Source: a phage. Taken from it: a DNA stretch of 64,000 nt. The DNA lies in sequence record PZ386972.1; one strand, 5' to 3'. The notes beneath the pieces are model-generated. The model had not been told where the DNA came from, ran no database searches, and saw nothing but the letters and a program-made list of their open reading frames with translations. Positions 33,358 through 42,031 of this stretch are shown piece after piece; position 1 is the stretch's first letter; each line of letters begins with the position of its first letter. A program made the translations under genes and the position numbers.

Positions 33358-33429
33358 GCCGTCCTAGTATAATTGGTATTATCAAGCCGTAACTGGTGGA
33401 AGATGTAGGTTCGAATCCTACGGTCGGTA
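33358..33429 (+). ncRNA. tRNA-like element with canonical T-arm but no anticodon arm found by hand
   Basis: T-arm GTAGGTTCGAATCCTAC at 33405-33421; 5' segment GCCGTCC pairs to 3' GGTCGGT with one mismatch. Confidence 0.3.
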
Positions 33430-35719: not shown

Positions 35720-35797
35720 GGTTCTCAAGCTCATATGGTATGAGCACCCGGCTCATAACCGGAAGGTACGTAGGTTCGAATCCTCGGGGAGCCACCA
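35720..35797 (+). tRNA. tRNA with CAU anticodon (Met, fMet or Ile2)
   Basis: Acceptor GGTTCTC/GGGAGCC; D-arm GCTC/GAGC; anticodon loop CTCATAA; weak T-stem; CCA. Confidence 0.5.
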
Positions 35798-39682: not shown

Positions 39683-40030
39683 ATGATTAATGCTAAAGAA
39701 GAGTTGTTACTTGCCCTAAAGAATACTAAGTCTGAAGTTAAGTGTATTAAGATAGAATTCGGTTATTATGGGAACAAAGAAGTTTGGATATTACCCGTAG
39801 GTTATACAGAAAAAGATATTGAAGATTTTCTAAATAATCTAGACTTCAAATATGATTCTGGTTTCGGTGGACAATTGCTTTACGGTAACGTATGGTTTAC
39901 TGATGGAACTTGGTTAGAGCGTGGTGAATATGATGGTTCTGAATGGTGGGAGTATAAGACTACACCAGCAATCCCAGAAGAATGCCGAACAATTAATGGT
40001 GAAGTAGATCGTACTTTACTATTAAATTAA
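39683..40030 (+). CDS. hypothetical protein (115 aa)
   Basis: ORF track. Confidence 0.45.
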   Translation: MINAKEELLLALKNTKSEVKCIKIEFGYYGNKEVWILPVGYTEKDIEDFLNNLDFKYDSGFGGQLLYGNVWFTDGTWLERGEYDGSEWWEYKTTPAIPEECRTINGEVDRTLLLN

Positions 40031-40038
40031 CAAAATTT

Positions 40039-40277
40039 CAGTGCAGAACACGGAGCTAGCAATTCGGAAGTGCTGACTCATGATAGGCTGCCTATGTACT
40101 TGCGAAGCGGTCGTGTCCAAGACTCGGACTCTTGCACTGAAAACAATCAAACATTCTAGCGTGGTTGATGGGGAAACCAGCTTGGCTAGGGCAGAAGCTC
40201 GTTCGATTCGAGTGAAAGAATGGTTCTCGTAAGTCCGCACAAGTGATAACAGGTTCGAGTCCTGTCTAGAATGACAC
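40039..40277 (+). ncRNA. composite structured RNA region with closing stems and two T-arm-like hairpins, unresolved
   Basis: CAGTGCAG (40039-46) pairs CTGCACTG (40132-39); ATTCTAG (40153-59) pairs CTAGAAT (40267-73); T-arm-like hairpins at 40197-40213 and 40250-40266. Confidence 0.3.
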
Positions 40278-40422
40278 TATAAAGTTTACTTATTATGTAG
40301 GTTCCGATAGATCGGCGGGTCTATTCTGGCATTTAAGAGAGGTCTCGCAAACTTCTTTGTCAGCCGTGGGGTTGATAGCCTCCAGGTGGCCTACACAATA
40401 AGTAAATTTATTAAAAATTCAT

Positions 40423-40451
40423 TTGCTATTCTGCTTAATTATCTGTATAAT
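40423..40451 (+). promoter_or_regulatory. early promoter
   Basis: TTGCTA 40423-40428, TATAAT 40446-40451. Confidence 0.6.
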
Positions 40452-40481
40452 ATATTTTATAAAGTGAGTTAACAAAATTAA

Positions 40482-40557
40482 CAGTGCGTAGCGCAGTTGG
40501 TAGCGTGGGAGCCTTGGATGCTTCGGGTCGCAGGTTCGAGTCCTGCCGCACTGACCA
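40482..40557 (+). tRNA. tRNA-Pro (anticodon UGG)
   Basis: Acceptor CAGTGCG/CGCACTG; anticodon stem GGAGC/GCTTC with loop CTTGGAT; T-arm GCAGGTTCGAGTCCTGC; CCA. Confidence 0.65.
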
Positions 40558-40956: not shown

Positions 40957-41194
40957 ATTTATATAAATTGATGAGGATTTCTCCTCATCATAGTTCACTA
41001 AGGTATTAGCTCGACCTAGGACTGGCTGCCAAAAAGCACGATCCCTACGATTCGGGAGAAGTTCTAGATTAGTCCACTAGATTCAGCGGCAACTGAATAG
41101 TGTATCGGGTTTGCGAGATGACGCGGTTCCTTCCGCTCGAAGCGAAGGTGCTGTAGTTACGCCGAGCTAATAGCCTTAGTAAACTAAAGAATTT

Positions 41195-41665: not shown

Positions 41666-41670
41666 AGTCT

Positions 41671-41802
41671 TGAAGTATGCCGGAATCGGTAGACGGGGCT
41701 GCCTAAAAGGTTTATAGGGAACATCCACTCCCTACAACATACCTCATAAAGCGGCTGAGATAAATGGTCTATCTCGTGAAGGTTCAAGTCCTTCTGCTTC
41801 TT
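41671..41802 (+). ncRNA. structured region with terminal T-arm (GAAGGTTCAAGTCCTTC) and internal hairpins, unresolved
   Basis: Hairpins TAGGGA...TCCCTA (41714-41734) and GAGATA...TATCTC (41757-41775); T-arm 41778-41794; no CCA. Confidence 0.25.
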
Positions 41803-42031
41803 GATACATCTATGGCTCAAAGTGTAACGGTGCTATTTGATGCTCTTAGTAAGACTTTCCCGACATGCGTTCGGGAGTAAGCTGCTAAGGCTAGAATAGA
41901 AGAGTTTCTGAGAGCCGCCACAATTGAAAATTCGTACTCGTCTTGAGCTGCGTGCAATAGGAGATAACTTGATTAGTATTCTAGAACATGCTAATTGAGG
42001 ATGGTTTCGCTAACCCTGCGAGTTTTCAATT

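What the first reader, a model, noticed from the sequence alone, without database searches (positions are those of the whole stretch)
40031..40400. Composite tRNA-like RNA with nested closing stems and two T-arms
CAGTGCAG (40039) pairs with CTGCACTG (40132) and ATTCTAG (40153) pairs with CTAGAAT (40267), each enclosing hairpins with 7-nt loops and GGTTCGA-type T-arms (40197-40213, 40250-40266). Neither unit folds as a 76-90 nt tRNA by hand. The region sits between a CDS and the next promoter, so it is probably transcribed by read-through.
Basis: seen in the sequence. Interest (0 to 1): 0.55.

Follow-up and report, generated by a model that had tools for sequence, protein, structure and literature searches.

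The report
tRNA-bodied phage RNA, second T-arm
The region holds three separate small structured RNAs of a T5-like phage, and the middle one is a tRNA-shaped molecule whose anticodon loop is replaced by a conserved knob with a second T-arm; it belongs to a widespread phage-only RNA family that is not catalogued and whose function is unknown.

Summary
The window is the tRNA region of a T5-like phage. It is 100% identical to Salmonella phage SCF and about 95% identical to T5 over this stretch. The finding is real but is not one composite RNA. It is three modules in a row.

- **Unit A, 40039-40139.** A stem-closed element found only in T5-likes and not annotated. No covariation is available. Its closing stem copies the acceptor stem of the nearby tRNA-Pro.
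- **Unit B, 40153-40273.** This is T5 'rna2'.
- **Unit C, about 40282-40409.** This is T5 'RNAIV', a separate cloverleaf-like RNA with compensatory changes.

No detector calls a tRNA anywhere in the region. A roughly 55-nt three-way junction replaces its anticodon loop. That junction carries the second T-arm and an AUGGU pentaloop.

I found 54 distinct homologues in very different phages and essentially none in bacterial genomes. All seven helices covary (0.745 against 0.168 in shuffles). Rfam 15 has no family for it.

The knob is far more conserved than the body. In T5-likes the gene lacks the encoded CCA that all 22 real tRNAs here carry.

The most likely reading is a non-decoding RNA carried on a tRNA scaffold. 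Its function is inferred, not shown, and may be a decoy for a tRNA-binding factor.

The parts
39683..40030 (+). Upstream CDS of 115 aa, the homologue of T5p065. It is context only. It is present or absent independently of the RNAs.
   Evidence: ORF list. Annotated as T5p065 in AY692264. Absent in phiST45 and PRF-SP13 while the RNAs remain.
40039..40139 (+). Unit A, a 101-nt element closed by a stem (40039-40045 with 40133-40139). It contains a hairpin at 40115-40129 with a 7-nt loop that is not T-loop-like. It is not annotated in T5. It may be a tRNA-Pro-derived relic or a stable RNA.
   Evidence: Inverted repeat I5. The fold z-score is -0.38. It occurs only in T5-likes at >=92% identity, in 220 records. 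Its 23 variants show scattered SNPs and no compensatory pair. The closing stem CAGTGCA/TGCACTG and the upstream spacer TTAACAAAATT match those of tRNA-Pro at 40482-40557. No CCA is encoded.
40153..40273 (+). Unit B, which is T5 'rna2'. It is a tRNA-bodied RNA of 120 nt plus the discriminator G.
   Evidence: Maps onto misc_RNA rna2 of AY692264. Scores 146.7 bits with covariance model R1 and is the only member in the window. Family covariation is strong.
40153..40159 (+). Unit B acceptor stem, 5' strand. It pairs with 40266-40272.
   Evidence: All 7 pairs show changes on both sides; 93% of cells are paired.
40162..40179 (+). Unit B D-arm (TGGTT GATGGGGA AACCA).
   Evidence: All 5 pairs show changes on both sides. 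GG in the loop is conserved.
40180..40184 (+). Unit B anticodon-stem equivalent (P3), 5' strand. It pairs with 40240-40244.
   Evidence: The five core pairs each show 21-26 double changes among 54 sequences.
40185..40239 (+). The conserved 55-nt knob that replaces the 7-nt anticodon loop. Its elements are: P4 GGGC/GTCC (40189-40192 with 40233-40236); P5 GA/TC (40194-40195 with 40227-40228); T-arm#1; a mini-hairpin P6, G-A[AUGGU]U-C (40218-40226); and the invariant CGTAA (40228-40232) and TCCGCA.
   Evidence: Conservation line and an extra covarying pair AT13/TA7/CG3. P4 shows UA26/CG12 and P5 shows AU18/UA16/GC11. Insert length is 52-56 nt in most members.
40197..40213 (+). T-arm#1, the internal one (GCTCG TTCGATT CGAGT).
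   Evidence: The three middle stem pairs each change on both sides in 21-34 of 54 sequences. The loop GTTCRATTC is nearly invariant.
40249..40265 (+). T-arm#2, the canonical one (ACAGG TTCGAGT CCTGT). It abuts the acceptor 3' strand at 40266-40272.
   Evidence: Helix 7 is 98.9% paired and 3 pairs covary. The 15-nt core is identical to the tRNA-Pro T-arm (D1).
40282..40409 (+). Unit C, whose core 40295-40397 is T5 'RNAIV'. A long closing stem (40282-40301 with 40390-40409) encloses three hairpins. The middle hairpin has an anticodon-loop-like 7-nt loop, CUCGCAA.
   Evidence: Annotation. Fold z-score is -3.9. The RNAalifold consensus has 47 pairs, 7 of them with compensatory changes. Inverted repeat I1.
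40423..40451 (+). Sigma-70-type promoter, T5 P13a, for the next operon (tRNA-Pro, tRNA-Met and onward). It marks the downstream limit of the RNA block.
   Evidence: 10 of 12 consensus match. Annotated as promoter P13a in T5.

Best explanation
The block 40039-40409 is a string of three independent small structured RNAs. They are co-transcribed with the phage tRNA genes, and inferred to be cut out by the tRNA-processing machinery.

The core of the finding is Unit B, which is T5 'rna2'. It is a member of a phage-restricted RNA family. Each member keeps a complete tRNA body: acceptor stem, D-arm with GG, anticodon stem, short variable loop and T-arm. The seven anticodon-loop nucleotides are interrupted after the fourth by a conserved knob of about 50 nt. 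The knob is a short stem (GGGY/RUCC, then GN/NC) leading into a three-way junction. That junction carries a second T-arm and a two-base-pair hairpin with an AUGGU loop.

By analogy with the tRNA D-loop/T-loop contact, the AUGGU loop probably docks on the second T-loop. That would give the tip of the former anticodon arm a second 'elbow'. This step is inferred.

The molecule has no anticodon, so it cannot decode. I infer that the tRNA body serves as a scaffold. It would let RNase P and the 3' trimming enzymes release the RNA, let it fold stably, and let tRNA-binding proteins recognise it. The highly conserved knob would be the working part.

My best guess for the job is a decoy or inhibitor for a host factor that grips tRNAs, such as a tRNA-cleaving or tRNA-modifying defence enzyme. 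I put this at about 25-30% and it is untested.

Unit C (RNAIV) is a separate structured RNA of unknown function. Unit A is an unverified stem-closed element related at its ends to tRNA-Pro.
For: **Identity**
- Unit B and Unit C coincide with the misc_RNAs rna2 and RNAIV of T5 record AY692264.
- No tRNA, tmRNA or Rfam family is called in the region.

**Structure**
- A covariance model built on my proposed structure finds 71 members, 54 of them distinct.
- 92.8% of cells are paired, against 61.3% in shuffles.
- The covariation score is 0.745, against 0.168 in shuffles (0 of 500 reach it) and at most 0.139 for slid controls.
- All 7 helices are supported (the smaller set agrees).
- The extra P6 pair was found by my own scan of all column pairs.

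**The body is tRNA-shaped**
- Ordinary tRNAs match model R1 end to end with the knob deleted.
- The Rfam tRNA model matches members that have canonical bodies end to end, with a 51-56 nt insertion in the anticodon loop (L126 50.6 bits, L111 47.9 bits).

**The knob is the conserved part**
- GGG, GTTCRATTC, ATGG, CGTAA and TCCGCA are invariant or nearly so.
- The acceptor, D and anticodon stems change freely.

**Not a decoding tRNA**
- All 22 real tRNAs in the window encode CCA. Unit B has GACA instead.
- The bases left around the knob are NCNA...GCA.

**Restricted to phages**
- Members occur in Tequintavirus, Epseptimavirus, Hongcheonvirus, Klebsiella T5-likes, the T4-like Acinetobacter phage 133 and many unclassified viral contigs of 14-570 kb.
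- One hit was found in 185,579 bacterial and archaeal genomes. It lies on a 167-kb contig with 14 tRNAs, which is probably a phage.

**Setting**
- Members sit in phage tRNA arrays on the tRNA strand and often abut a tRNA.

**Not coding**
- Both ORFs across the region are broken in T5 and frameshifted in PRF-SP13.
Against: - No expression, end-mapping or binding data were available here. That these T5 RNAs accumulate rests on the depositor's annotation and on my memory of older T5 work.
- The CM-derived alignments are fitted to the proposed structure, which inflates pair counts. The slid controls and the first-pass MAFFT alignment argue that the effect is real.
- P4 and P5 each rest on one covarying pair, and P6 on one to two.
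- The second-elbow contact is an analogy, not a result.
- No conserved neighbouring protein points to a partner.
- No E. coli sequence resembles the knob, so the decoy role has no direct support.
- In two T4-like members (L007, L104) the acceptor and D parts look degenerate. The full tRNA body may therefore not be essential.
- Unit A has no comparative support for any structure.
Confidence: 0.72

Rival explanations
1. Unit B and its relatives are real tRNA genes interrupted by a new kind of small intron. The knob is removed, and the ligated product decodes. The would-be anticodons include UAG and GAG if the splice falls after G37.
For: - Members with canonical bodies score as tRNAs in Rfam with the insertion exactly in the anticodon loop.
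- The nucleotides left outside P4 sum to exactly 7 in 41 of 54 members.
- The bodies keep tRNA invariants such as U8/A9, GG and an AGGUC-type variable loop.
- Bacterial and phage tRNA genes are known to carry group I introns in the anticodon loop (established knowledge).
Against: - At 52-56 nt the knob is far too small for a group I intron, and no Rfam intron family matches.
- Bacteria lack the archaeal/eukaryal splicing endonuclease (established knowledge), and I saw no bulge-helix-bulge motif by eye.
- A loop left by excision at P4 would read N-C-N-N-G-C-A. It would have C instead of the near-universal U33 and C instead of a purine at position 37.
- The would-be anticodon and the discriminator base are not conserved (A19, G13, C11, U11).
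- NAG anticodons would need class II Leu bodies, but these have short variable loops.
- The T5-like copies have a degraded body (C8, no Rfam tRNA hit even at E<=10) and no CCA, although all 22 real tRNAs encode it.
- The insert is more conserved than the supposed exons. That is the opposite of what is usual for introns.
Confidence: 0.08
2. The units are decaying pseudo-tRNAs or fusion relics. They would have been produced by the frequent repeat-mediated deletions in the T5 tRNA region and have no function of their own.
For: - Modules come and go among relatives.
- Unit A shares its closing stem and upstream spacer with tRNA-Pro.
- Unit B's T-arm#2 core is identical to the tRNA-Pro T-arm (D1).
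- The T5 tRNA region is described as a deletion hotspot (PMC12483538).
- Unit A has no structural covariation.
Against: - For Unit B this is excluded in practice. The knob sequence is kept almost unchanged across unrelated phage groups while the stems covary.
- Unit C also shows compensatory changes.
- For Unit A the relic reading remains open.
Confidence: 0.1
3. The region encodes small proteins, as some GenBank records annotate ('hypothetical protein' over the match).
For: ORFs of 50 aa (+ strand, 40080-40232) and 72 aa (- strand, 40022-40240) exist. Several phage records annotate hypothetical proteins here.
Against: - Both frames carry in-frame stops in T5 and are frameshifted in PRF-SP13.
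- Substitutions follow base pairing, not codon positions.
- Length differences among homologues are not multiples of three.
Confidence: 0.02
4. Units A and C are mainly cis-acting RNA signals for the flanking genes rather than free small RNAs. Examples would be a 3' stabiliser of the upstream mRNA, or RNase III/E processing or termination structures ahead of promoter P13a.
For: - Unit A starts 8 nt after the CDS stop codon.
- Unit C's 20-bp AU-rich closing stem ends 14 nt before the -35 box of the next promoter.
Against: - Unit A persists in PRF-SP13, where the CDS is absent.
- No terminator-like site is found on the + strand.
- Unit C is annotated as a discrete RNA in T5.
- Unit C's internal hairpins covary, which a simple terminator would not need.
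Confidence: 0.08

Closest known systems
Bacteriophage T5 misc_RNAs 'rna2' and 'RNAIV' (GenBank AY692264, tRNA gene region)
   Same: They are orthologous loci. Identity is about 95%, the order is the same (CDS T5p065, then rna2, RNAIV and promoter P13a), and the strand is the same.
   Different: Nothing differs in kind. The record gives only names and coordinates. It gives no structure, family or function, and Unit A is not annotated there.
Canonical tRNA (Rfam RF00005)
   Same: Both have a 7-bp acceptor stem, a D-arm with GG, a 5-bp anticodon stem, a 4-5 nt variable loop and a T-arm with a GTTCRA loop next to the acceptor 3' strand. All of these covary. Some relatives score as tRNA in Rfam.
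   Different: The anticodon loop is replaced by a structured knob of about 55 nt. The window copy is not detected as a tRNA, has C8/G9, and lacks the encoded CCA that all 22 real tRNAs here have.
T4 small stable RNAs rnaC and rnaD (species 1 and 2)
   Same: They too are small stable RNAs of unknown function, encoded inside a phage tRNA cluster on the tRNA strand. rnaC also ends in a T-arm-like hairpin.
   Different: There is no convincing alignment. Model R1 finds only ordinary tRNAs in the T4 cluster. The T4-like Acinetobacter phage 133 does carry a true member.
Bacterial Y RNA-like YrlA (Rfam RF02553)
   Same: It is a non-coding RNA that uses T-arm and D-arm mimicry of tRNA.
   Different: In YrlA the 5' and 3' ends form the Ro-binding stem, and the tRNA-like part is distal (from memory). 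Here the ends form the acceptor stem. There is no Rfam match in the window. A relative's locus gives only 23.8 bits against a threshold of 69.
Engineered 'tRNA scaffold' for expressing recombinant RNAs (anticodon arm replaced by a cargo RNA)
   Same: The design principle is the same. A cargo is grafted onto the anticodon stem of a tRNA body, so that the cell processes and protects it like a tRNA (from memory).
   Different: This one is natural, conserved and confined to phages. Its cargo is itself a T-loop-containing junction.
tmRNA tRNA-like domain
   Same: It has an acceptor stem plus a T-arm, and an elaborated region where the anticodon arm would be.
   Different: ARAGORN finds no tmRNA. 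There is no tag reading frame, a full D-arm is present, and the RNA is only 120 nt.

Membership tests
tRNA (RF00005) | Detected by tRNA covariance or heuristic models | tested here: not met
   There is no ARAGORN call between 39657 and 40481. There is no Rfam tRNA hit at the gathering score or at E<=10. Relatives with canonical bodies do reach 48-51 bits, with the knob treated as an insertion.
tRNA (RF00005) | Seven-nucleotide anticodon loop with U33 and a purine at position 37 | tested here: not met
   The loop is replaced by 52-56 nt. The remaining flanks read NCNA...GCA.
tRNA (RF00005) | Acceptor, D, anticodon and T stems in cloverleaf order | tested here: met
   All four stems covary in 54 sequences.
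tRNA (RF00005) | 3' CCA end and aminoacylation | tested here: inconclusive
   CCA is not encoded in the window copy (GACA), although all 22 tRNAs here encode it. It is encoded in the Klebsiella-phage copies. Addition after transcription and charging cannot be tested with these tools.
T5 rna2 / RNAIV loci | Sequence and positional orthology with the annotated T5 features | tested here: met
   A pairwise alignment at 95% identity maps rna2 to 40152-40276 and RNAIV to 40295-40397.
T5 rna2 / RNAIV loci | Accumulates as a discrete stable RNA in infected cells | not testable with these tools
   Only the depositor's misc_RNA annotation is available. The original papers are not in the library.
Intron-containing tRNA (group I or bulge-helix-bulge type) | Insertion in the anticodon loop of an otherwise normal tRNA | tested here: met
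   The Rfam tRNA alignment places 51-56 nt inside the anticodon loop of L126 and L111.
Intron-containing tRNA (group I or bulge-helix-bulge type) | Recognisable intron machinery: a group I core, or a bulge-helix-bulge for a splicing endonuclease | tested here: not met
   No Rfam intron family matches. The insert is 52-56 nt. The covariation-supported fold is a three-way junction with a T-arm. The bulge-helix-bulge motif was judged absent by eye only.
Intron-containing tRNA (group I or bulge-helix-bulge type) | The spliced product has a functional, conserved anticodon loop | tested here: not met
   The residual loop lacks U33 and R37. The would-be anticodon and the discriminator vary.
tmRNA | tRNA-like domain plus a tag-peptide reading frame | tested here: not met
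   ARAGORN reports no tmRNA. There is no Rfam tmRNA hit.
YrlA / bacterial Y RNA (RF02553) | Match to the family model, with a terminal Ro-binding stem | tested here: not met
   There is no hit in the window at E<=10. A relative's locus gives 23.8 bits against a gathering score of 69.
T4 rnaC / rnaD | Sequence or structure homology to the T4 species 1 and 2 RNAs | tested here: not met
   The MAFFT alignment is poor. Model R1 hits only normal tRNAs in the T4 cluster L009.

The most novel reading that the evidence does not exclude
Unit B represents a phage-wide, previously undescribed class of 'double-elbow' tRNA mimics. Each is a tRNA body whose anticodon loop carries a second T-loop/D-loop-like module. 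Phages would use it to jam or titrate a host factor that recognises tRNAs, for example anticodon-loop nucleases or other tRNA-directed immune effectors. That would make it an RNA-based anti-defence element. The same data do not fully exclude a more radical alternative, that the knob is a new type of small tRNA intron.
Probability: 0.25. Interest if true: 0.85.

Novelty: new variant of a known kind. Interest (0 to 1): 0.6.

Why it matters
Phage tRNA clusters have long been known to encode small stable RNAs whose roles are still unknown. T4 species 1 and 2 and the T5 RNAs are the examples I recall.

This analysis turns one of them, T5 rna2, into a defined family. It now has a structure supported by covariation, clear boundaries and dozens of members across unrelated phages. 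It also shows that the conserved, presumably active part is a knob grafted where the anticodon should be.

That makes the question testable. One can delete or mutate the knob in T5, a tractable model phage. The mutant can then be challenged with hosts carrying tRNA-targeting defences (PARIS, Septu/PtuAB, PrrC and the like, against which T5's real tRNAs already matter; PMC11464382, PMC13096335). The partner can be pulled down.

The analysis also flags a practical issue. Genome annotation pipelines either miss these genes or call spurious small ORFs over them. tRNA finders may report relatives as intron-containing tRNAs.

Tried and rejected
- **Rfam.** I scanned the window at gathering thresholds, and at E<=10 on 39950-40480. 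Nothing turned up but a chance miRNA match at 16.8 bits.
- **Thermodynamic folding alone.** Units A and B are no more stable than shuffles (z = -0.38 and -0.29). The minimum-energy fold misses T-arm#1, so energy was not informative.
- **T4 rnaC and rnaD as homologues.** Rejected.
- **T5 'RNA2H' as a paralogue of rna2.** Model R1 finds no second copy in the window or in T5. By eye, RNA2H lacks the knob motifs.
- **A conserved protein neighbour.** All-against-all BLASTP of ORFs from 22 diverse loci found no family shared beyond close relatives.
- **Host mimicry at sequence level.** The knob has no blastn match in 5,426 E. coli genomes.
- **Literature.** Six full-text searches found no description of rna2, RNAIV or this architecture. 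One further search failed on a term-length error. The T5 genome paper and the 2018 T5 tRNA-deletion paper are not held.
- **Unit A homologues outside T5-likes.** None were found by blastn. Unit A shows no covariation.
- **Coding potential of the overlapping ORFs.** Rejected.
- **The first MAFFT alignment of diverse members.** It misaligned the 5' half. I replaced it with a small seed plus covariance-model alignment.

Full report
**What the window is.** ARAGORN finds 22 tRNA genes on the + strand between 33.9 and 44.3 kb, and Rfam agrees. The flagged stretch is 100% identical to Salmonella phage SCF and about 95% identical to phage T5. It has matches in 482 phage records, mostly Salmonella, Escherichia and Klebsiella T5-like phages of the family Demerecviridae. 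No tRNA, tmRNA or Rfam family is called between tRNA-Lys (ends 39656) and tRNA-Pro (starts 40482), even at E<=10.

**Checking the observation.** The stems and hairpins exist, with small coordinate or sequence slips.
- The partner of CAGTGCAG is TTGCACTG, not CTGCACTG.
- CTAGAAT starts at 40266.
- The second T-arm is at 40249-40265.
- Both T-arms lie in the second unit.
- The two closing stems are serial, not nested.

**Three modules, two of them already named.**
- The T5 st0 record AY692264 annotates six misc_RNAs in its tRNA region.
- Alignment maps 'rna2' to window 40152-40276 (Unit B) and 'RNAIV' to 40295-40397 (Unit C).
- Promoter P13a follows; in the window it is TTGCTA-17-TATAAT at 40423-40451.
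- Unit A (40039-40139) is not annotated there.
- Comparison with three relatives shows that the modules are independent. The upstream CDS and Unit A are missing in some phages. A tRNA-Gly plus another module, or a CDS, can sit between B and C. B and C are kept throughout.

**Unit B is a family, not an oddity.**
- Weak blastn hits led to copies in a Pectobacterium phage, Klebsiella T5-like phages, Yersinia phage phiR2-01 and the T4-like Acinetobacter phage 133.
- Already in that first alignment the acceptor stem is replaced wholesale: ATTCTAG/CTAGAAT becomes TACGGGG/TCCCGTA.
- The internal T-arm stem changes from CTCG/CGAG to ACGG/CCGT to ATGG/CCAT.
- A core stays fixed: GGG..., GGTTCGATTCC..., AATGG..., CNCGTAANTCCGCA.
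- Pattern scans of IMG/VR brought in members from contigs of 14 to 363 kb.
- I built a covariance model from six sequences and my proposed structure.
- The model finds exactly one member in the window, at 40153-40273 with 146.7 bits.
- It also matches ordinary tRNAs end to end at 33 bits or less with the insert deleted. This shows that the frame is tRNA-shaped.
- With a metagenome scan the set grew to 71 members, 54 of them distinct.

**Structure.** I counted pairs on the 54 distinct sequences.

| Measure | Proposed structure | 500 shuffles | 3' partners slid by 1-3 columns |
|---|---|---|---|
| Cells paired | 92.8% | 61.3% | 28-48% |
| Covariation score | 0.745 | 0.168 (0 of 500 reach it) | at most 0.139 |

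- All seven helices are supported: acceptor (7 bp), D (5), anticodon-stem equivalent P3 (5 solid pairs plus 2 weak ones), P4 GGGY/RUCC, P5 GN/NC, T-arm#1 and T-arm#2.
- The 28-sequence set gave the same picture.
- The alignment is fitted to the model, which favours it.
- A scan of all column pairs added a two-base-pair hairpin, G-N[AUGGU]N'-C (AT 13, TA 7, CG 3).
- What replaces the anticodon loop is therefore a three-way junction: a stem P4/P5, a T-arm with a canonical GTTCRATT loop, and a tiny hairpin presenting an invariant GG.
- By analogy with the tRNA D-loop/T-loop contact I infer a second elbow at the tip of the former anticodon arm. This tertiary contact is not demonstrated.

**tRNA or not.**
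- Members with textbook bodies are scored as tRNAs by Rfam's own model, with 51-56 nt inserted in the anticodon loop (L126 50.6 bits, L111 47.9 bits).
- The nucleotides left outside P4 number 4 + 3 = 7 in 41 of 54 members.
- The knob therefore very probably arose inside a normal anticodon loop. An intron reading has to be considered.
- Several points count against the intron reading:
  - 52-56 nt with a T-arm is not a group I intron.
  - Bacteria lack the splicing endonuclease (established knowledge).
  - The residual loop NCNN-GCA lacks U33 and a purine at position 37.
  - The would-be anticodon and the discriminator are not conserved.
  - The insert is more conserved than the supposed exons.
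  - In the window Unit B lacks CCA, while all 22 genuine tRNAs encode it.
  - The T5-like body is too degraded for any tRNA detector.
- I keep the intron reading at about 8%.

**Distribution and context.**
- A scan of 185,579 bacterial and archaeal genomes gave one true member. It sits on a 167-kb contig with 14 tRNAs, which is probably a phage.
- Members lie in phage tRNA arrays of up to 36 tRNAs, on the same strand and often abutting a tRNA. Two loci have no tRNA nearby.
- No protein family is consistently adjacent.
- The knob has no look-alike in E. coli genomes.
- The ORFs that some records annotate over the region are broken in T5 and frameshifted in PRF-SP13.

**Units A and C.**
- Unit C folds into a long closing stem with three hairpins.
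- Seven of its pairs show compensatory changes among T5-like variants.
- Its middle hairpin ends in CUCGCAA, which has the Y-U-NNN-R-N pattern of an anticodon loop.
- Unit C is a real structured RNA of unknown role.
- Unit A occurs only in T5-likes at 92% identity or more.
- Its 23 variants carry scattered single changes and no compensatory pair.
- One predicted hairpin exists only in this window's allele.
- Its closing stem CAGTGCA/TGCACTG and the upstream spacer TTAACAAAATT repeat those of tRNA-Pro 440 nt downstream.
- Unit A may therefore be a tRNA-Pro-derived relic or a further small RNA. I cannot tell which.

**How it most likely works.**
- Shown: the architecture, its conservation pattern, its restriction to phages, and the absence of an anticodon and of an encoded CCA.
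- Inferred: co-transcription with the tRNAs, release by RNase P and 3' trimming, stabilisation by the tRNA fold, and the knob as the functional surface.
- T5's real tRNAs already serve to evade tRNA-cleaving defences (PMC11464382; PMC13096335).
- The T5 tRNA region is a dispensable deletion hotspot (PMC12483538).
- Given those two facts, the most economical function is a decoy or inhibitor for a host tRNA-binding factor.
- This is a hypothesis at roughly one in four.

**Verdict.** The locus itself is already annotated in T5. I did not find its family-level structure and breadth described anywhere, and Rfam 15 has no model for it.

Noticed in passing
window 41004-41175, 41669-41813, 41814-41920, 41925-42030: These are homologues of the other four T5 misc_RNAs (RNA2H, RNA1, RNAI, RNAIII). 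RNA1 looks like a tRNA-Leu-type body with a class II D-arm (GCCGGAATCGGTAGACGG), a T-arm and a large insertion. In T5, RNAI ends in GCCA.
   Followed up: partly
window 35720-35794 and 33358-33429: Rfam calls tRNAs here at 40.3 and 35.5 bits, but ARAGORN does not report them.
   Followed up: no
L010 8968-9094; L070 8798-8910; L075 9906-10039 (-); L136 1967-2098 (-): These are other tRNA-shaped frames of 113-134 nt with large unrelated insertions, in the same phage tRNA arrays. They suggest that tRNA bodies carrying cargo domains are a general phage theme.
   Followed up: partly
L070 3070-3168 and L088 1288-1385: ARAGORN calls tRNA-Pro(UGG) genes of 98-99 nt with an apparent long extra arm. That is unusual for tRNA-Pro.
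   Followed up: no
L104 7053-7127 and L070 12400-12474: These are amber-suppressor-type tRNAs (anticodon CTA, labelled tRNA-Pyl by ARAGORN) in phage tRNA arrays. The one in L104 directly abuts the Unit B family member.
   Followed up: no
L001 541-607 (phiST45); also L066 and L006 upstream of Unit B: Where Unit A is absent, a different module of about 55 nt sits in front of Unit B. It is closed by a stem (AAGAGT...ACTCTT) and shares the 3' tail CGGACTCTT with Unit A. This hints at module exchange by recombination.
   Followed up: no
L001 812-1000 and L003 about 1000-1090: In Epseptimavirus relatives a further conserved structured-looking module (AAATTTAGGTTTCTGCTTCCTAGAGAACGGACTCC...) lies between tRNA-Gly and Unit C. 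It is absent from this window.
   Followed up: no
L075 7918-8084 (-), L105 836-959 (-), L153 3327-3456 (-), L093 1051-1150: These family members have a changed T-arm#1 region. It carries an extra insertion of up to about 45 nt, or in L093 it is replaced by a plain hairpin. The second T-arm is therefore not strictly universal.
   Followed up: partly
window 40090 (the G in ATAGGCT): This window has G where all 22 other Unit A variants examined have A. The G creates a 5-bp hairpin that the other phages lack.
   Followed up: yes
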